Of a DNA stretch of 64,000 nt, positions 14,274 through 59,242 are shown piece after piece (within the stretch, counting starts at the first letter, position 1; each line of letters begins with the position of its first letter). Below the pieces are notes generated by a model. It was given only the letters and a program-made list of their open reading frames with translations, was not told the origin of the DNA and made no database searches. The translations under genes and the position numbers were made by a program. Source of the stretch: an uncultured Clostridia bacterium. Lineage in GTDB: Bacteria; Bacillota; Clostridia; TANB77; CAG-508. The DNA is taken from NCBI GenBank assembly GCA_963557785.1, contig CAUWBF010000005.1:10312-74311 (forward strand), read 5' to 3'.

Positions 14274-14621
14274 TTAATTACAAATTTTAGTTCCTAATTC
14301 TTTTCCCGCTATTAAATGAAAATGTAAATGCATAACTTCTTGTCCTGAGTCTTTACCACTATTTGTTATTACTCTATATCCTGACTCTGAAACACCTTGT
14401 TCTTCAGCTATTTTATTTATAATTGAATATATTCTTCCAATTAATGCTTCATCTTCTTTTTTCATATCTTTTATTGAATCCATATGTTTTTTTGGAATTA
14501 CTAATATATGTACTGGAGCTGCAGGATTTATATCTTTAAATGCTATTACTTCATCATCTTCATACACTATAGTTGAAGGTATTTCTTTATTAGCTATTTT
14601 ACAAAATAAACAATCTCCCAT
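14274..14621 (-). CDS. HIT-family (histidine triad) nucleotide hydrolase
   Basis: 115 aa with HLHFHLI histidine-triad motif. SD aaggag upstream. Confidence 0.85.
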   Translation of the reverse strand: MGDCLFCKIANKEIPSTIVYEDDEVIAFKDINPAAPVHILVIPKKHMDSIKDMKKEDEALIGRIYSIINKIAEEQGVSESGYRVITNSGKDSGQEVMHLHFHLIAGKELGTKICN

Positions 14622-14639: not shown

Positions 14640-16400
14640 TTATTCTTTTATTAAAACTGCTTTTATTCTTCTTACACCTGATGAACTAGATTCTTCCTTC
14701 TTTATCTTTAATTTTCCAAGTTCCGCTGTATGTTTCACATGAGGTCCACCACAGATTTCTTTGCTAAAATCTCCTATTGTATATACCTTTACTCTATCTC
14801 CATATTTATTAGTAAATAAACCAATTGCACCAGATTTTTTTGCTTCATCATATGTCATTTCTTCGCATGTAACTGGTAAATCTTTTTGTATTTGTTCATT
14901 TACTAAATCTTCTACTTTTTTAATTTCTTCTGGAGTCATTTTTTGTGGATGTGTAAAGTCAAATCTTAATCTATCTACTGTAATATTAGATCCATTTTGT
15001 TTTACGTGTTCTCCCAATACTTCTCTTAAAGCTTCGTGTAAAAGGTGTGTAGCAGTATGATAAGCTGTTGTTACTTCATTTTGTTCTGCTAATCCTCCCT
15101 TAAATTTTTGTTCAGCACCTTGTCTTGATTTTTCTTGATGAGCTTTGAATAATTCATCAAATTTATTTAAATCAACTTTCATGCTATTTTCTTCTGCAAG
15201 TTCTTTTGTTACTTCTGGTGGGAATCCATAAGTATCATATAATCTAAATACTACTTCTCCTGATATTTTGTCTTGTCCTTGTTCTTTAGCTTTTTTTATT
15301 TCTTTTTCAAATTCTCTTTCACCATGTGCTAAAGTTTTTACGAATTTATCTTTTTCTTCTATAATTACATTTTTAATTGTCTCTTTATTTTTATCTAAAT
15401 CTGGATACATTTCTTTTAAGTTTTCTACGTTTAGGTCAATTAAATTTGATATTTCATCTAAGTTAATTTGTAATTTATTCATATGTCTTATCATTCTACG
15501 AATTAATCTTCTTAAAATATATCCTCTATCTATGTTACTTGGTCTTCCTCCATCGCATATAATCATCATACTAGAGCGAAGATGTTCTGCAACTACTCTT
15601 CTACTTTGTATACTATCTACTTTTTGTAATTCTTCTAATTTGTGCATTATTGGTGCAAATAATTCTGTATCATATGGTGTTTCTTTTCCTTGAAGAAGCA
15701 TTGTCATTCTTTCTAATCCAAGTCCTGTATCTACGTTTTTCTTTTCTAATTTTGTATATTTTCCGTCTTTACTTTTAAAGTATTCCATAAATACATTGTT
15801 CCATATTTCTACATATTTACCACAATCGCAAGATGGTTCACAATGGTCTGAGCATGCTGGTTTTCCTGTATCGTAGAACATTTCTGTATCTGGTCCACAT
15901 GGTCCTTCTTCTCCTGCTATCCACCAGTTATCATCTTTTCCATAAAAATATATATGGTTTTCTGGTATTCCAGCTTTTTTCCAACATTCATATGCTACAT
16001 TATCTCTTGGAGCGTCTTCGTCTCCTGCAAAACAAGTAACAGATAGTTTTTCTACTGGTATTCCTAATTCTTTAGTTAGAAAATCAAAGCTCATTTGAAT
16101 TGATTCTTCTTTGAAGTAATCTCCTAAAGACCAGTTTCCTAGCATCTCAAAATATGTTAAATGACGATTATCTCCTACTTCATCTATATCAACAGTTCTA
16201 ACACATTTTTGATAGTCTGTTAGTCTTGTTCCTTCTGGATGTTTTTCTCCTAATAAATATGGTACTAATGGTTGCATACCAGCTGTTGTAAATAATACAG
16301 ATGGATCATTTTCTGGTATTAATGGTGCACTTGGTATTATTTTATGTCCATGATTTTCAAAAAATTTCAAATATTTATTTCTTATCTCTATAGCTTTCAT
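14640..16400 (-). CDS. alaS: Alanine--tRNA ligase-like, short form (586 aa) lacking the C-Ala domain and part of the editing domain
   Basis: N-terminal class II AlaRS catalytic core (FTTAGMQP, WSLGDYF, CGPDTE, EIWNNVFMEY, GLGLERM). Retains editing-site zinc motifs HTATHLLH and CGGPHV. Ends about 290 aa short of canonical 870-880 aa bacterial AlaRS. Confidence 0.8.
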   Translation of the reverse strand: MKAIEIRNKYLKFFENHGHKIIPSAPLIPENDPSVLFTTAGMQPLVPYLLGEKHPEGTRLTDYQKCVRTVDIDEVGDNRHLTYFEMLGNWSLGDYFKEESIQMSFDFLTKELGIPVEKLSVTCFAGDEDAPRDNVAYECWKKAGIPENHIYFYGKDDNWWIAGEEGPCGPDTEMFYDTGKPACSDHCEPSCDCGKYVEIWNNVFMEYFKSKDGKYTKLEKKNVDTGLGLERMTMLLQGKETPYDTELFAPIMHKLEELQKVDSIQSRRVVAEHLRSSMMIICDGGRPSNIDRGYILRRLIRRMIRHMNKLQINLDEISNLIDLNVENLKEMYPDLDKNKETIKNVIIEEKDKFVKTLAHGEREFEKEIKKAKEQGQDKISGEVVFRLYDTYGFPPEVTKELAEENSMKVDLNKFDELFKAHQEKSRQGAEQKFKGGLAEQNEVTTAYHTATHLLHEALREVLGEHVKQNGSNITVDRLRFDFTHPQKMTPEEIKKVEDLVNEQIQKDLPVTCEEMTYDEAKKSGAIGLFTNKYGDRVKVYTIGDFSKEICGGPHVKHTAELGKLKIKKEESSSSGVRRIKAVLIKE

Positions 16401-16486
16401 ATAAGATTCTCCTTTTTATTTATCTAACGATGAAATTATATTACATTATGTTAGAAAAATCAAGAAAATCCGGCTTTTAGACATAA

Positions 16487-16523: not shown

Positions 16524-17354
16524 TTAATTGTTTAAGATTTTATCTGCTCTTTCTTTTAGGTTAGAATCTTTTTCCATATAATAATATCCTTGTTTAATTA
16601 ATTTTTTTAGTATTCCTTTTTCTTCTTCAGTTATTTTTTTACTTTCAGATACATCTAATATAATATTATATAACTCTATTTCTTTTTCTTCTAAATCTCT
16701 AGGTCCATAATTTTTTACTTTATTTATTTCAATTACTTCTTCATATACTTTTTCAAAATTATTATTATATTTTTTTAGAATTTCAATTGCTATTTCTTGA
16801 TTGTTTTTTGATTCTTCTATTATTTTTGTTTTTTCTTGCATTTCATCACTATTTGAATATAGTTTATATGAATCATCTAGTTTAAAATAATCTCTTACTG
16901 TAGTTTCTATTCTTTCATTATCTTTATTATTTCCATATATCTTTATATAATTTTCATAACATTCATTAACCATATTAATATATTGTTCATTGTCTTCTTC
17001 GTTCCTAGTCTCGTATCCTAAATCATAGTAATATTCATAAAATATTTCTGCTAATTTAACTTTTATAGGTTTATTTTTTTCTTTATCAAATTTAAGATTA
17101 TAATCTCCAATTTCATATATTATTTCCGAAAATTCTGTACCTGTATAACAATATTTATTTATTTTATATCCTAATCCTATAGCTTCCCATGATCCTCCGT
17201 CGGCATATGTCGCTTTATAATACATAGTAAATGATAATGGATTTTTTTTATTTTTTACTCTATTTTTATTTATAAAAAAAGTTATTACTACAAATATCAG
17301 CATAAATATAAATATTCCTAATATTATTTTTAATATTTTAGATAAAAACTTCAT
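16524..17354 (-). CDS. Hypothetical membrane-anchored protein (N-terminal TM, acidic/Lys-rich extracytoplasmic domain)
   Basis: 276 aa with a single N-terminal TM helix and no recognisable domain. 11 nt downstream of, and co-directional with, the preceding exported protein gene. Confidence 0.5.
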   Translation of the reverse strand: MKFLSKILKIILGIFIFMLIFVVITFFINKNRVKNKKNPLSFTMYYKATYADGGSWEAIGLGYKINKYCYTGTEFSEIIYEIGDYNLKFDKEKNKPIKVKLAEIFYEYYYDLGYETRNEEDNEQYINMVNECYENYIKIYGNNKDNERIETTVRDYFKLDDSYKLYSNSDEMQEKTKIIEESKNNQEIAIEILKKYNNNFEKVYEEVIEINKVKNYGPRDLEEKEIELYNIILDVSESKKITEEEKGILKKLIKQGYYYMEKDSNLKERADKILNN

Positions 17355-17365
17355 ATTATTCTCCT

Positions 17366-18682
17366 TTATATATCATATATTTCAGATAATACTGTACTTG
17401 TTCCATTTGCATATCTAAATGTATTATATACTATAATTTGTTTTTTTCCATCTTTATTATACATATAATATGTCCTTTGATTAGATATCTTTGAGTTTAA
17501 TATTTCATAATTCTGCACGTTGCTCGCAGTAGCTAAAGCACTATACTGGCTGGTATTTATAGTTTCTATATCGGTAGACAATATATTATTTTTTTCTTCT
17601 TCTGAAATGTATATAGTAGAGTCTACAATTTTAGTTACTTTACTATTATTTACGAATATTTTATATTGCGATTCTGTATAAAACTCACCAATCTTTCTTG
17701 TTAATACTATTGTATATGTTTCTTCATCTAACATTGTTTTATTTTCTACAATAGAATACTCATCTTTATTAAAATTATTATCATAATCACTTATAGCATC
17801 AAATATGTCCTCATAATATCCACTTGTAAATTCTATATTTGTATCTCTAATATTTGGTATTTCTTTTATTATCGTAGGATTATAACCTAAGTTTTCAACT
17901 TTTGCTTTGGATTTCATTACTTCTAAATTATATGTATTAACTCTATAATCGGACAATTTAGTATATCCTCCATCATTACTATATTGAATCAAACTTGTAA
18001 CATTTGATCCTTCTGGATATGTTTGAGCTGCTCCTGCATATTCTAAGGCATCTCTAATTGTATAATCTTGAGTTAAAGCCCAATTTAAATGTTTACAAAA
18101 ATCTTTCTGTGCACCTGATTCTACCTGATATCTCCAACCTATGGTATTTTTTGTACCCTTGCTATAAAATAATTGCGCCAAATTAGGTGTGGAAATAGTA
18201 GGTTCACTATCTCCAGTTGAAGCTGTTTCACATCCTGCTAGTATTACTAATATATTTGTATTTTTTTCCATATTGTTAAGCGATACGTATTTATATCCGT
18301 TAGATTCATACCCATCACTTTGTCTTCCATGTACTCCGCAGGCATATTCTCCTCCTTTTTGCTTATAGTTCCAATCCATAGTATATCTACTTCCATGCCC
18401 ATCTAAATATAATATATCACTTTCCCAAAGTCTTATATTATAATCCCCATATCCACCTCTTAATAACCACTCATATGTTGGTTGAGTTAATATAGCAGTA
18501 TCATATCCAAATGATTTATAACAATTCCTTGCATATTCTACATTTTCCGTTGTGTTTAGTCCAAATAGCCCACTTCTATAGTCTGTTCCTATCCCTGAAG
18601 CTTTGTTATATAATGCATACCCTTCTGTATTTAGTATTACTAAAAAAGCTATAAAAATTGAAATAAAAATTTTTTTTATCAT
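17366..18682 (-). CDS. Exported hypothetical protein with clan-CD-like (caspase/legumain/clostripain-type) His...Cys signature
   Basis: Signal peptide (MIKKIFISIFIAFLVIL). LYLDGHGS and, about 50 aa later, VILAGCETAS resemble the His-Gly/Ala-Cys catalytic dyad spacing of clan CD cysteine peptidases. Start set at the second ATG, which has an aaaggggg SD. Confidence 0.45.
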   Translation of the reverse strand: MIKKIFISIFIAFLVILNTEGYALYNKASGIGTDYRSGLFGLNTTENVEYARNCYKSFGYDTAILTQPTYEWLLRGGYGDYNIRLWESDILYLDGHGSRYTMDWNYKQKGGEYACGVHGRQSDGYESNGYKYVSLNNMEKNTNILVILAGCETASTGDSEPTISTPNLAQLFYSKGTKNTIGWRYQVESGAQKDFCKHLNWALTQDYTIRDALEYAGAAQTYPEGSNVTSLIQYSNDGGYTKLSDYRVNTYNLEVMKSKAKVENLGYNPTIIKEIPNIRDTNIEFTSGYYEDIFDAISDYDNNFNKDEYSIVENKTMLDEETYTIVLTRKIGEFYTESQYKIFVNNSKVTKIVDSTIYISEEEKNNILSTDIETINTSQYSALATASNVQNYEILNSKISNQRTYYMYNKDGKKQIIVYNTFRYANGTSTVLSEIYDI

Positions 18683-18783
18683 AATGTTTCCCCCTTTAAT
18701 TATATATATCATATTTTCATATAAAAAAACCGAAAAGTTGAAAAAGTTGAAAAAATTTATTTATATCGACTTTGTCAAAAAAA

Positions 18784-27425: not shown

Positions 27426-28745
27426 TTATTTATTACCATTAATTTTTTCTATTACTTTATCTAATGATAATGTTTCTTGACTACCTGTATTCATGTCTTT
27501 TAATGTTACTACATTATTTTTTATTTCATCTTCTCCTATTACTATTACATAAGGTATATTTAATTTATCTGCATATTTAAATTTTGCTTTTATTTTTTTA
27601 TCATTTAAATATACTTCTGTACTAATTCCTGAATTTCTTAATATCGTAGCTGTCTCGATGCTCTTTTCTATGTCTTCTCCCATTGAAACTACCAATACTT
27701 TTGATACAGATTTTTGCTCAGCTTTTATTATATTCATTTCATTTAATTTATAGAATAGTCTTGTAAGTCCTATAGATACACCTACTCCAGGAAGTTTCTT
27801 GTCTGTATAATATTCTGCTAAGCTTTCATATCTTCCTCCTGAGCATACACTTCCTAAACTTCTATAATCATCTAAAAATGTTTCATATACTGTTCCTGTA
27901 TAATAATCTAAACCTCTTGCTATAGTATAATCAACTTTAAAGTTTTCGTCAGGAACTCCAAATAATCTTATATTTTTTACAACGTCTTTTAGTTCTTTTA
28001 AACCTTCAGCAAAAAGTTCATTTTTTATATTTAATTCTTCTAATTTTAATAATTTTTCATCTGTATTTCCTGATATTTCTATAAAGTTCATAATTGTATC
28101 TATTGAATTATTATCTATATTTAGTTCTTGTAATTCTTTTACAACTTTATCTTTTCCAATTTTTTCTATCTTATCTATAATTCTCATTATTTCTATAGAT
28201 TTTTCTTTTAATTTTAATGATTCATATAGTCCATTTAATATTTTTCTGTTATTTATACGAATTGTAAATTTATCAAAACCTAATTGTTTGAATATATTAT
28301 ATATAACGCTTGGTAGTTCTGCATCATATATAACGCTTAGCTCTCCATCACCAATAATATCTATATCACATTGATAAAATTCACGAAATCTTCCTTTTTG
28401 AGGTCTTTCTCCTCTATATACTTTTCCAATTTGGTATCTTCTAAATGGAAAACTTAATTCATTATAATACTGTGATACATATTTTGCTAGTGGTACAGTT
28501 AAATCAAATCTTAAAGATAAGTCATTATCTCCTTTATTAAATCTATAAATTTGTTTTTCTGTCTCTCCTCCAGCTTTTGCTAGCAATACATCTGATAGTT
28601 CTATAATTGGTGTATCTAATGGTAAAAATCCATAATTTTCATATGTATTTTTAATTATATCTTTTATTTGATTAAATAGAATTTGCTCTGTTGGCATTAA
28701 TTCCATAAAACCTGGTAAAGTTCTTGGTTCAACTTTTTTATTCAT
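27426..28745 (-). CDS. hisS: Histidine--tRNA ligase
   Basis: Class II motif 2 (FRYQIGKVYRGERPQKGRFREFYQCD), HisRS-type N-terminus, C-terminal anticodon-binding domain. Only 10 nt from the upstream gene, so no room for a T-box leader. Confidence 0.9.
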   Translation of the reverse strand: MNKKVEPRTLPGFMELMPTEQILFNQIKDIIKNTYENYGFLPLDTPIIELSDVLLAKAGGETEKQIYRFNKGDNDLSLRFDLTVPLAKYVSQYYNELSFPFRRYQIGKVYRGERPQKGRFREFYQCDIDIIGDGELSVIYDAELPSVIYNIFKQLGFDKFTIRINNRKILNGLYESLKLKEKSIEIMRIIDKIEKIGKDKVVKELQELNIDNNSIDTIMNFIEISGNTDEKLLKLEELNIKNELFAEGLKELKDVVKNIRLFGVPDENFKVDYTIARGLDYYTGTVYETFLDDYRSLGSVCSGGRYESLAEYYTDKKLPGVGVSIGLTRLFYKLNEMNIIKAEQKSVSKVLVVSMGEDIEKSIETATILRNSGISTEVYLNDKKIKAKFKYADKLNIPYVIVIGEDEIKNNVVTLKDMNTGSQETLSLDKVIEKINGNK

Positions 28746-28755
28746 ATTTTACCTC

Positions 28756-57763: not shown

Positions 57764-58612
57764 TTAGTGAAGTTCTTCATTTTTTGTATTTTTGTATAAG
57801 ATAAGATTTGCAGTAATTATTAATATAATTCCTATTATTAAAACTACAATTCCGTTAGTTAATATATTATTCATAATACTATGTAATATATTTCTTAATG
57901 TTATTGAAAATCCATTATTAAGAACTGTTATGTAGTCTATTTTTACTTTTGAATTCACAATAAAATTAACTACTATGTAAAATATACCTGTTGATGATAA
58001 TACTATTCCTATTTGTGCAATTCCTCTTAATATATTTTTCATATTTAATAATAGTAGTAATATTACTAGAATAACATCTACAATTATTGCTACTGTTTTT
58101 ATTTTTGATGAATATCTTATAATTTTAGTTAATACTTTATTTATACTGGTTTCATATTTGGTATGAATAATTGTATCTTTATATTCCTCTGTAATCTTAT
58201 TTATAAATTGAGTAATTGATTTCTTTGTAGAATCTGATATTTTTTGTCCAGATAGAGAATTATATATATTTTTTTCTAGTCTTTCTTCTATTTTACTAAT
58301 ATCGACTTCTGTAACTTCTTTGTTATTATAAATATTATTAATTATTTGTATTGTATCAGATTTAATATCCTCTTCTGATATTATACCTTTAATTACATCT
58401 TCATCTAGTCCTGATTGATATATATAATTTTCAAAGTTTGATTCTACTTGATTATATACATTATTATAATAATTAGTTTCTTCTATTTTTCCTAAAATAT
58501 AGTCTTTATTTAGAATCGTAGAAGTTAATACTTTTACTGCAAGTGTCAATATTATAGATATAATTAAAAGAATTATTACTATGTATTTTATAATATTTGA
58601 TATTATTTTCAC
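57764..58612 (-). CDS. Hypothetical polytopic membrane protein, GTG start
   Basis: 282 aa. N-terminal TM, long charged coiled region, 3-4 C-terminal TM helices. ggaggag SD before GTG. Downstream of, and co-oriented with, the sortase/substrate pair. Confidence 0.5.
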   Translation of the reverse strand: MKIISNIIKYIVIILLIISIILTLAVKVLTSTILNKDYILGKIEETNYYNNVYNQVESNFENYIYQSGLDEDVIKGIISEEDIKSDTIQIINNIYNNKEVTEVDISKIEERLEKNIYNSLSGQKISDSTKKSITQFINKITEEYKDTIIHTKYETSINKVLTKIIRYSSKIKTVAIIVDVILVILLLLLNMKNILRGIAQIGIVLSSTGIFYIVVNFIVNSKVKIDYITVLNNGFSITLRNILHSIMNNILTNGIVVLIIGIILIITANLILYKNTKNEELH

Positions 58613-58624
58613 TTTATTCTCCTC

Positions 58625-59236
58625 CTACTTTTCTAATTCTGCATATACAACATATCTTTGAGTTGCATAACCCACATTGTTAAATGGATAGCATGTATAT
58701 ACCATTAAAATTTCTTTTTCTTTTTGAATTGGCACTTTGTCTAATTCTGTTTCTTTAATTAATTGCATATCATATATTTTATATTTATATACTCCATAAC
58801 TTGTTGTTACTGTTATCTCATTTCCTACTTGTAGCTCAGAAAATCTTCTAAATACCTTTCTAGAGTTATGTCCCATATATACTATACTTCCACCTTCTCC
58901 TGGGAAGTAACTACCACTTGAATGTCCTACACCTTTTTTTAAGATCTCAAGAGTATCTCCAAAGTATACTGGTAGGTTTACATCAATTTTAGGTATTTCA
59001 ATTGTTGCATATTGCGTTCCATATTCTGGGTAGTTTATTAATTTTTTTTCTTGTTCATTAATTACTGTTTCAGCTGTTTCTTCTTTATTACTAATATCTA
59101 TTGATACTTTATTTACCAATGAAAAGGCTTCACTTATTTTTTGCCCATAAAGTAAGTTTATGCCTTCCAACAAAATTGTTATAATTAAAAAAGCAACTAT
59201 TACGTCTATAATAGTTGCTTTTAATACTTTAACCAA
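58625..59236 (-). CDS. Sortase (small, N-terminally anchored), TTG start
   Basis: Catalytic TLxTC-like motif MVYTCYP near the C-terminus, conserved His in IVYMGHNS, Arg downstream. 203 aa. Confidence 0.75.
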   Translation of the reverse strand: MVKVLKATIIDVIVAFLIITILLEGINLLYGQKISEAFSLVNKVSIDISNKEETAETVINEQEKKLINYPEYGTQYATIEIPKIDVNLPVYFGDTLEILKKGVGHSSGSYFPGEGGSIVYMGHNSRKVFRRFSELQVGNEITVTTSYGVYKYKIYDMQLIKETELDKVPIQKEKEILMVYTCYPFNNVGYATQRYVVYAELEK

Positions 59237-59242
59237 TTTAAA

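What the first reader, a model, noticed from the sequence alone, without database searches (positions are those of the whole stretch)
14640..16400. Unusually short AlaRS (586 aa) lacking the C-Ala domain and part of the editing domain
The catalytic core motifs are intact, and the zinc-binding editing motifs HxxxH (HTATHLLH) and CxxxH (CGGPHV) are retained. The segment that normally forms the beta-barrel subdomain between the aminoacylation and editing cores appears to be missing, as is the entire C-terminal C-Ala domain (about 290 aa in canonical bacterial enzymes). The architecture resembles catalytic domain plus an AlaX-S-like minimal editing core. No T-box leader precedes the gene, only a plain TTGATT-17-TATAAT promoter with a 123-nt gap. 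Either this is the sole, minimised AlaRS of a reduced genome, or a paralogue.
Basis: partly seen in the sequence, partly recalled or inferred. Interest (0 to 1): 0.55.

Follow-up and report, generated by a model that had tools for sequence, protein, structure and literature searches.

The report
Known "small" alanyl-tRNA synthetase variant
The gene is an intact, conserved alanyl-tRNA synthetase of the already described "small-AlaRS" type, which naturally lacks two of the five usual domains; it is the ordinary enzyme of a large group of uncultured gut Clostridia, not a truncation or an oddity of this genome.

Summary
ORF 14640-16400 (-) encodes a 586-aa AlaRS with a complete aminoacylation and tRNA-recognition part (1-427), a 13-residue linker, and a 146-residue zinc-type editing core (HTATH, CGGPH). 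That core superposes on free-standing AlaX-S. About 105-115 aa of beta-barrel and about 180 aa of coiled coil plus C-Ala are absent.

It is not a frameshift. More than 500 species-level genomes carry the same 583-587-aa protein in the same alaS-HIT-sortase arrangement, and no barrel or C-Ala coding sequence exists in the window or in 603 kb of related loci.

It is not new. The protein matches NCBIfam NF002436 (PRK01584, "alanine--tRNA ligase", 595 positions) end to end. A 2023 preprint describes this architecture as "small-AlaRS". Among the 150 closest cluster representatives, 67 share it; the few named homologues are mostly Patescibacteria.

The missing T-box and the TTGATT-17-TATAAT promoter are confirmed, and the promoter is conserved in relatives.

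Whether this is the only AlaRS of the genome could not be tested directly. Conservation, synteny and the small genomes of relatives (1.6-1.75 Mb contigs) make that likely.

Low novelty, modest interest.

The parts
14640..16400 (-). alaS, small-AlaRS type: 586 codons plus the stop codon at 14640-14642
   Evidence: The ORF is listed. NCBIfam NF002436 matches 1-585 to profile positions 1-594 of 595, at 879.6 bits against a cutoff of 529. TIGR00344 scores 657.5 bits against a cutoff of 457.
15681..16400 (-). Class II catalytic core, residues about 1-240. Family-invariant residues include R68, W160, N201, D224 and G226.
   Evidence: Pfam tRNA-synt_2c. Invariant columns. The AF2 model has pLDDT mostly above 90 here. 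Foldseek TM-score normalised to target is 0.87 for E. coli 3hxu and 0.89 for human 5knn.
15120..15680 (-). Helical tRNA-recognition domain (the 'ATL' domain of the preprint), residues about 241-427. It carries N289 and D389, which align with the E. coli Asn and Asp that read G3:U70.
   Evidence: PDB alignments to catalytic fragments cover query 2-434. N289 is invariant among the 42 cluster representatives and in at least 90% of the 146 sequences. The alignment to the E. coli sequence is; that sequence and its residue numbers are from my memory.
15081..15119 (-). Linker, residues 428-440, standing where canonical enzymes have the 111-153-aa beta-barrel segment
   Evidence: This is the only stretch of the AF2 model with pLDDT below 50 (428-438). 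The length between residues 428 and 448 is 20 aa in 126 of 146 family members.
14643..15080 (-). Minimal editing core, residues 441-586, AlaX-S-like
   Evidence: phmmer aligns query 446-577 to AlaX-S residues 7-144 and to A. fulgidus AlaRS residues 598-732. Foldseek gives TMt 0.86-0.89 and rmsd 1.7-1.8 A for 1v7o, 1wnu and 1v4p. Pfam tRNA_SAD matches 537-579.
15045..15059 (-). HxxxH zinc motif (H448-T-A-T-H452)
   Evidence: H448 and H452 are invariant in 42 and in 146 family sequences.
14739..14753 (-). CxxxH zinc motif (C550-G-G-P-H554)
   Evidence: C550 and H554 are invariant. C550 aligns with E. coli C666 (E. coli numbering from memory).
16435..16463 (-). Promoter-like TTGATT-17-TATAAT. The AAAGGAGA ribosome-binding site is at 16408-16415. 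The leader is only about 30 nt.
   Evidence: Found by the scan and read directly. A near-identical cTTGATTTTTT...gTATAAT lies 55-130 nt upstream of the start codon in most of 77 relatives.
14274..14621 (-). HIT-family (HinT-like) gene 18 nt downstream, possibly co-transcribed. It is a conserved neighbour, not part of the enzyme.
   Evidence: NCBIfam and Pfam HIT hits. It sits directly downstream of alaS in 68 of 80 relatives.

Best explanation
This is the functional, housekeeping and probably only alanyl-tRNA synthetase of a low-GC, spore-forming, small-genome lineage of uncultured gut Clostridia. It belongs to the 'small-AlaRS' subgroup (NCBIfam NF002436).

Inferred mechanism:
1. Residues 1-427 activate alanine and charge tRNA-Ala. 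They recognise the G3:U70 pair through the helical domain (N289, D389), as isolated N-terminal fragments of canonical AlaRS do.
2. A flexible linker of about 13 residues tethers a 146-residue zinc-dependent editing core (H448, H452, C550, H554, Q468, R577/R578). This core hydrolyses mischarged Ser-tRNA-Ala in cis.
3. Without the coiled coil and C-Ala, the enzyme should be a monomer that does not grip the tRNA elbow.
4. Without the barrel, with its Gly-rich loop, its editing may resemble AlaX-S: Ser but perhaps not Gly.
5. Expression comes from a plain sigma-70-type promoter with a short leader, not a T-box.

Shown: the architecture, the conserved residues, the fold, the conservation and synteny, and the absence of a T-box. 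Inferred: enzymatic activity, monomeric state, editing spectrum and single-copy status.
For: Family membership: the match to NF002436 runs end to end and lies above the curated cutoff. TIGR00344 (alaS) is also above its cutoff.

Structure: the deep-alignment AF2 model has mean pLDDT 88.8. It shows two well-defined modules and a disordered linker. The modules match AlaRS catalytic fragments and AlaX-S respectively.

Conserved residues: the active-site and zinc residues are invariant across 146 family members. Residues aligning with E. coli N303, D400, Q584, C666 and R693 are present.

Conservation in the lineage:
- At least 531 species-level genomes encode a relative, and the best 80 are 74-84% identical and 583-587 aa long.
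- Median identity of AlaRS is 78.5%, against 64.6% for the HIT gene and 51.3% for the sortase next to it.
- The order alaS-HIT-sortase is kept in 63-68 of 80 relatives.
- Identical proteins of relatives lie on contigs of 1.60 and 1.75 Mb among housekeeping genes such as gatCAB and pyrG.

Wider family: sources name the short homologues 'alanine--tRNA ligase' in Patescibacteria, whose genomes are small. The subgroup is published as small-AlaRS.

Supporting literature:
- An E. coli 1-700 truncation is monomeric with near wild-type charging (abstract of PMC4649089).
- An A. aeolicus N-terminal fragment charges a G3:U70 minihelix (PMC10036535).
- The long helices between the editing domain and C-Ala mediate dimerisation, and PhAlaX-S clears Ser- but not Gly-tRNA-Ala (PMC11260482).
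Against: No enzymatic data exist for any small-AlaRS in the literature I could search.

Single-copy status was not tested. Only 64 kb of this genome and about 600 kb of relatives' loci could be read, and the tools cannot scan a whole genome of this lineage.

The assignment of the lineage to a reduced-genome order (GTDB TANB77) rests on my memory of what the CAG:354 and CAG:389 names map to, plus the 1.6-1.75 Mb contigs.

N-terminal positions were off by one.
Confidence: 0.8

Rival explanations
1. The short gene is an accessory paralogue. A canonical alaS of about 875 aa, possibly T-box regulated, lies elsewhere in the genome and does the housekeeping work. The short enzyme would then serve a side role, for example backup charging, resistance to an AlaRS inhibitor, or supply of Ala-tRNA for cell-wall synthesis.
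For: Only 64 kb of the genome could be inspected, so a second gene cannot be excluded. Firmicutes commonly regulate alaS through a T-box (my own knowledge), and this gene has none.
Against: The gene is kept in at least 531 species-level genomes at 74-84% identity and in a fixed position. It is more conserved than its neighbours. Relatives have genomes of only about 1.6-1.75 Mb, where duplicate synthetases are uncommon. There is no biosynthetic or resistance context around it. The same form is the annotated alanine--tRNA ligase of Patescibacteria.
Confidence: 0.13
2. The gene is a truncated or frameshifted remnant of a canonical alaS, or an assembly artefact.
For: Nothing beyond its length being about 290 aa below the norm.
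Against: Both deletions are clean and in frame. The same length recurs in hundreds of independent assemblies. The stop codon is followed after 18 nt by a conserved HIT gene. tblastn with barrel and C-terminal parts of 12 barrel- and/or C-Ala-bearing relatives finds nothing in the window. In 603 kb of relatives' loci it finds only one marginal 39-aa match (E = 0.007). The short forms sit on one side of a single split in a distance tree.
Confidence: 0.01
3. It is the sole AlaRS, but its editing function is weakened or narrowed because the barrel is missing. The lineage would then tolerate or exploit Gly/Ser-for-Ala mistranslation, or depend on trans factors such as DTD or AlaX.
For: Free-standing AlaX-S, which also lacks the barrel, does not clear Gly-tRNA-Ala (PMC11260482). 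No dtd or alaX gene lies in the window, including the relA-hisS interval where dtd sits in Bacillus subtilis (the gene order is from memory).
Against: All zinc ligands and the residues aligning with E. coli Q584 and R693 are conserved, which argues for maintained editing. The window is 64 kb of a genome probably around 1.6-1.75 Mb, to judge from relatives' contigs, so the absence of dtd here says little.
Confidence: 0.25

Closest known systems
small-AlaRS subgroup (bioRxiv 10.1101/2023.05.29.542759), equivalent to NCBIfam NF002436 / PRK01584 'alanine--tRNA ligase'
   Same: The three-domain architecture is identical: catalytic domain, tRNA-recognition (ATL) domain and editing core, with no cradle-loop barrel and no C-Ala. 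The HMM match runs end to end.
   Different: The preprint lists CPR bacteria, Thermoplasmatota, DPANN and Asgard archaea. This copy is from spore-forming gut Clostridia, a host group the preprint does not name. A 'Clostridia bacterium' MAG protein does appear among the homologues.
Canonical bacterial AlaRS (TIGR00344; E. coli AlaS, about 875 aa)
   Same: The aminoacylation and tRNA-recognition domains are 42-49% identical to canonical representatives. The editing-core fold and zinc motifs are the same.
   Different: This protein lacks the barrel subdomain of about 110 aa and the coiled coil plus C-Ala of about 180 aa. It should therefore have no elbow binding and no oligomerisation. It also has no T-box leader.
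AlaX-S (Pyrococcus horikoshii PH0574; PDB 1v4p, 1v7o, 1wnu)
   Same: Residues 441-586 cover the whole AlaX-S fold (TMt 0.86-0.89, rmsd 1.7-1.8 A) and carry the same HxxxH and CxxxH site.
   Different: AlaX-S is a free-standing trans-editing protein. Here the core is fused in cis to the synthetase. Sequence identity is only about 25%.
Tupanvirus mini-AlaRS (PMC10036535)
   Same: It is a natural AlaRS without C-Ala that still charges tRNA-Ala through the acceptor stem.
   Different: The viral enzyme also lacks the editing domain and the conserved Asn and Asp. The protein here keeps an editing core, N289 and D389.
Engineered E. coli AlaRS 1-700 (PMC4649089) and C. elegans mitochondrial AlaRS with a residual C-Ala (PMC8887476)
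   Same: The chain ends at or near the end of the editing core. The E. coli construct is monomeric and active.
   Different: Both of those retain the barrel. The nematode enzyme serves elbow-less tRNAs, and nothing suggests that applies here.

Membership tests
NCBIfam NF002436 (PRK01584) alanine--tRNA ligase, short form | Full-length match to the 595-position profile above the curated cutoff of 529 bits | tested here: met
   879.6 bits, residues 1-585 matched to profile positions 1-594.
small-AlaRS (bioRxiv 10.1101/2023.05.29.542759) | Catalytic, ATL and editing domains are present; the cradle-loop barrel and C-Ala are absent | tested here: met
   Pfam domains; alignment with canonical forms; linker and tail lengths; AF2 model and Foldseek; definition of the subgroup.
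AlaRS (TIGR00344 alaS equivalog) | Score above the curated cutoff of 457 bits | tested here: met
   657.5 bits in two stretches, the best being 5-432 to profile positions 1-433 of 847.
AlaRS | Conserved alanine-pocket and class II core residues | tested here: met
   R68, W160, N201, D224 and G226 are invariant in the 42-sequence family alignment. In the 146-sequence alignment R68, W160, D224 and G226 are invariant and N201 is in at least 90%. They align with E. coli R69, W170, N212, D235 and G237 (E. coli numbering from memory).
AlaRS | Asn and Asp of the tRNA-recognition domain that read G3:U70 | tested here: met
   N289 and D389 align with E. coli N303 and D400. N289 is invariant among representatives. 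The Asp is not conserved across the whole short family, where the consensus reads LYxTxGFP.
AlaRS / AlaX editing fold | HxxxH and CxxxH zinc motifs | tested here: met
   H448, H452, C550 and H554 are invariant.
AlaRS | Alanylation of tRNA-Ala and hydrolysis of Ser-tRNA-Ala | not testable with these tools
   Needs enzyme assays.
Canonical four/five-domain AlaRS | Beta-barrel subdomain and C-Ala (DHHA1) domain | tested here: not met
   There is no DHHA1 hit. The linker is 19 aa against 111-153 aa, and the tail 4 aa against 162-272 aa.
Free-standing AlaX (NF040865 AlaXM) | Score above the cutoff of 300 bits, as a stand-alone protein | tested here: not met
   76.9 bits, covering only the C-terminal 140 residues, and the domain is fused to the synthetase.
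T-box-regulated aaRS genes of Firmicutes | T-box leader (Rfam RF00230) upstream | tested here: not met
   No Rfam hit in the window or in 19 related loci. The leader is only about 30 nt.

The most novel reading that the evidence does not exclude
In a whole order-level lineage of gut Clostridia with ordinary L-shaped tRNAs, a CPR-type small-AlaRS has displaced the canonical T-box-regulated alaS and is the only AlaRS. On this reading, both the tRNA-elbow-binding C-Ala domain and the barrel of the editing domain are dispensable in free-living spore-formers. Editing may also be narrowed to serine.

The nearest non-clade homologues (57-61% identity) carry Patescibacteria and Clostridia MAG labels, which is compatible with horizontal acquisition. 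I did not build a robust phylogeny.
Probability: 0.45. Interest if true: 0.4.

Novelty: already known. Interest (0 to 1): 0.22.

Why it matters
AlaRS reviews repeatedly state that the enzyme keeps one prototype architecture throughout biology. They list only a few exceptions: the Tupanvirus mini-AlaRS, the C. elegans mitochondrial enzyme, the split N. equitans enzyme and the L. major enzyme.

The small-AlaRS subgroup is far more common than that list suggests. It accounts for 67 of the 150 closest 50%-identity clusters. It occurs in at least 531 species-level genomes related to this one.

The subgroup is therefore a ready natural test of three questions:
- what C-Ala and the barrel contribute to charging;
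- what they contribute to editing specificity (Ser versus Gly);
- what they contribute to oligomerisation.

For this window the practical message is smaller. The gene is a normal, correctly called alaS and needs no correction.

Tried and rejected
1. Frameshift or truncation. Rejected. tblastn of the protein against the window finds only the gene itself. The barrel and C-terminal parts of 12 barrel- and/or C-Ala-bearing relatives find nothing in the window and only one marginal match (E = 0.007) in 84 loci.

2. A second alaS, a split AlaRS, or a stand-alone AlaX, C-Ala or DTD in the window. None was found. All ORFs of 100 aa or more were scanned with Pfam or NCBIfam. The only DHHA1 domain is in RecJ.

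3. A direct test for a second alaS in the same genome. This was not possible. The cluster look-ups returned no names or accessions. The exact protein was 'not on record' for contig look-up. The contig look-up tool shows only 10 kb either side of a gene even on contigs above 1 Mb.

4. A first AF2 model from a shallow alignment (26 sequences, at least 74% identical). It was poor in the catalytic core (mean pLDDT 66). It was replaced by a 146-sequence model (pLDDT 88.8).

5. The conserved KF(G/K)G motif of the linker as a stand-in for the Gly-rich loop of the barrel. Not supported. E. coli has a similar SGFG at the end of its N-terminal fragment (my recollection of the sequence), and the model is disordered there.

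6. Searches for PRK01584 and for Borrelia plus AlaRS found nothing useful. My recollection that Borrelia AlaRS is about 594 aa and belongs to this family remains unverified.
Full report
OBSERVATION

The ORF at 14640..16400 on the minus strand encodes 586 residues.

Pfam places tRNA-synt_2c on residues 5-453, using only profile positions 1-454 of 552. It places tRNA_SAD on residues 537-579. There is no DHHA1 (C-Ala) hit. A canonical relative scanned the same way (P0151, 878 aa) uses profile positions 1-536 and does carry DHHA1.

PDB sequence search aligns residues 2-434 with catalytic fragments of Aquifex, E. coli and human AlaRS. It aligns residues 446-579 with the editing domain of A. fulgidus AlaRS (598-732), with the whole of AlaX-S (7-144), and with only the C-terminal half of AlaX-M (97-212).

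WHAT EXACTLY IS MISSING

I aligned the query with ten short and eight canonical representatives. The query lacks the block that in long forms holds the FYAExGGQxGD barrel. It ends at RRIKAVLIKE, which corresponds to RRIEA(I/V)TG, the point where the coiled coil of long forms begins.

I then measured all 150 best cluster representatives from the exhaustive representative search:
- The segment between the tRNA-recognition domain and the HxxxH motif is 13-31 aa (mostly 19) in short forms. It is 111-153 aa in canonical forms.
- The tail after the editing core is 0-14 aa in short forms. It is 162-272 aa in canonical forms.

So roughly 105-115 aa of barrel and about 180 aa of coiled coil plus C-Ala are absent.

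STRUCTURE

A first AlphaFold model from a shallow alignment was unreliable in the catalytic core. A model built from 146 family sequences has mean pLDDT 88.8 and pTM 0.70. The only stretch with pLDDT below 50 is residues 428-438.

Foldseek against the PDB gives the following:
- The N-terminal module matches AlaRS catalytic fragments. TM-score normalised to target is 0.87 for E. coli 3hxu and 0.89 for human 5knn.
- The C-terminal module matches AlaX-S (1v7o, 1wnu, 1v4p) with TM 0.86-0.89 and rmsd 1.7-1.8 A over about 150 columns.
- AlaX-M is covered only by half (TM 0.50-0.52).

The protein is two rigid modules joined by a short flexible tether.

NOT AN ARTEFACT

- tblastn of the protein against the window finds only the gene itself.
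- tblastn with the barrel and C-terminal parts of twelve barrel- and/or C-Ala-bearing relatives finds nothing in the window. In 603 kb of 84 related loci it finds one marginal 39-aa match (E = 0.007).
- The stop codon is followed after 18 nt by a HIT-family gene.
- The 120 best homologues are all 583-587 aa long.

WHO HAS IT

A scan of one genome per species found at least 531 relatives. The best 80 are 74-84% identical. All come from uncultured gut Clostridia MAGs, under NCBI names such as Clostridium sp. CAG:389, CAG:354 and 28_17.

The order alaS-HIT-sortase is kept in 63-68 of those 80 genomes. Median identity is 78.5% for AlaRS, against 64.6% for the HIT protein and 51.3% for the sortase. 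Identical proteins of relatives lie on contigs of 1.60 and 1.75 Mb, and the gene sits among housekeeping genes such as gatCAB and pyrG.

The window itself is ordinary chromosome of a 26%-GC spore-former. It carries spoVT, spoIIP, ytfJ, recD2, mreB, pyk, hisS, relA, recJ, mutS, miaB and recA.

I believe these MAGs belong to the GTDB order TANB77, which is described as an uncultured clade with reduced genome size and distinct GC content (PMC11680825). I did not verify that mapping.

THE WIDER FAMILY

NCBIfam NF002436 (PRK01584.1) is an equivalog model named alanine--tRNA ligase, 595 positions long. It matches the protein end to end at 879.6 bits against a cutoff of 529.

The 150 closest 50%-identity clusters break down as follows:
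- 67 have the same barrel-less, C-Ala-less architecture;
- 72 are canonical;
- 4 lack the barrel but keep C-Ala;
- 2 keep the barrel but lack C-Ala;
- 6 are partial.

In a distance tree one split separates all 67 short forms from the rest. The four barrel-less forms with C-Ala nest among canonical sequences, so the barrel has been lost more than once. This is a neighbour-joining tree with long branches and should be read as indicative only.

Most homologues carry no source name. Where one is given, the short homologues are called alanine--tRNA ligase, in Candidatus Nealsonbacteria, a Parcubacteria bacterium (there annotated only as hypothetical) and other Patescibacteria. A Clostridia MAG and a Deltaproteobacteria MAG also appear.

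[quoted passage not shown] The architecture is thus both catalogued and published. The AlaRS-focused papers I read do not mention it. They list only the Tupanvirus, C. elegans mitochondrial, N. equitans and L. major enzymes as exceptions to the prototype.

HOW IT MOST LIKELY WORKS

Shown. The class II core residues R68, W160, N201, D224 and G226, the zinc ligands H448, H452, C550 and H554, and Q468 and R578 are invariant or nearly invariant (90% or more) in alignments of 42 and 146 family members. N289, D389, Q468, C550 and R577 align with E. coli N303, D400, Q584, C666 and R693. That alignment used an E. coli sequence and residue numbers recalled from memory, and N-terminal positions were off by one.

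Inferred. Residues 1-427 charge tRNA-Ala by reading G3:U70, as isolated N-terminal fragments do. An A. aeolicus N453 fragment charges a minihelix (PMC10036535). An E. coli 1-700 truncation is monomeric with near wild-type activity (PMC4649089 abstract).

Because the long helices that mediate dimerisation are absent (PMC11260482), the enzyme should be a monomer with no elbow contact.

The tethered editing core should clear Ser-tRNA-Ala. Free-standing AlaX-S, which also lacks the barrel, clears Ser- but not Gly-tRNA-Ala (PMC11260482). A narrowed editing spectrum is therefore possible. No dtd or alaX gene lies in the window, but 64 kb is too little to draw a conclusion from that.

REGULATION

No Rfam family reaches threshold in the window. 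No T-box appears in 19 related loci.

The promoter-like TTGATT-17-TATAAT lies at 16463-16435. Such matches are common in AT-rich DNA: 5 were found against 14 expected in shuffles. However, a nearly identical cTTGATTTTTT...gTATAAT lies 55-130 nt upstream of the start codon in most of 77 relatives. That conservation is better evidence.

The leader here is about 30 nt, with an AAAGGAGA ribosome-binding site. A 12-bp AT-rich inverted repeat followed by a T run lies after the upstream gene. It may be that gene's terminator; the terminator scan did not score it.

SOLE ENZYME OR PARALOGUE

This is the one part of the interpretation I could not settle. No tool allowed a whole genome of the lineage to be scanned.

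Four points favour a single housekeeping gene: retention in hundreds of species, higher conservation than its neighbours, a fixed position, and small genomes. The use of the same form in Patescibacteria points the same way. I put the paralogue alternative at about 0.13.

VERDICT

The thing itself is an already known kind, present in public databases under the correct name. It is of modest interest, mainly as an uncharacterised natural variant that the AlaRS literature has largely overlooked.

Noticed in passing
window 16524-18712 (-): Two ORFs (276 aa and 448 aa) lie between spoVT and alaS. The larger has a sub-threshold CHAT/caspase-like hit. Neither has a tblastn match in the 80 related loci. 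They look like a strain-specific insertion.
   Followed up: partly
window 27426-31635 (-): The gene order is relA, an MBL-fold hydrolase (28756-29403), then hisS. There is no D-aminoacyl-tRNA deacylase (dtd) gene here or anywhere else in the window. DTD is the enzyme reported to clear Gly-tRNA-Ala (PMC8583063). This could matter if the barrel-less editing core cannot clear it.
   Followed up: partly
L063:1724-2349: In one relative a full-length OLE RNA (Rfam RF01071, 346.6 bits) lies directly upstream of the small-AlaRS gene.
   Followed up: no
L003, L005, L009, L010, L012, L024: the 120 nt upstream of alaS: The alaS leaders of a sub-group of relatives hold two or three copies of a motif of about 25 nt, roughly gacaaacgaac(t/c)caatg(g/c)gaca. 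It is absent from the window. Its meaning is unknown.
   Followed up: no
proteins P0125 (776 aa) and P0134 (781 aa): Two small-AlaRS cluster representatives carry a foreign domain inside the aminoacylation part: His_Phos_1 in P0125 and Ham1p_like in P0134. These could be real insertions or chimeric gene calls.
   Followed up: no
proteins P0166, P0208, P0230, P0270 (773-814 aa): These AlaRS forms have lost the barrel but keep C-Ala (DHHA1). They nest among canonical sequences in the distance tree, which implies independent loss of the barrel. Two other forms (P0162, P0203) keep the barrel but lack C-Ala.
   Followed up: partly
window 57764-59758 (-): A second sortase (58625-59236) is flanked by two ORFs with no Pfam hit (282 aa and 171 aa). 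This may be a pilin/sortase locus. A conserved pilin has been reported for the TANB77 clade (PMC11680825).
   Followed up: no
window 44764-49606 (-): mutS (46991-49606) is followed by a DUF2207 membrane protein rather than by mutL.
   Followed up: no
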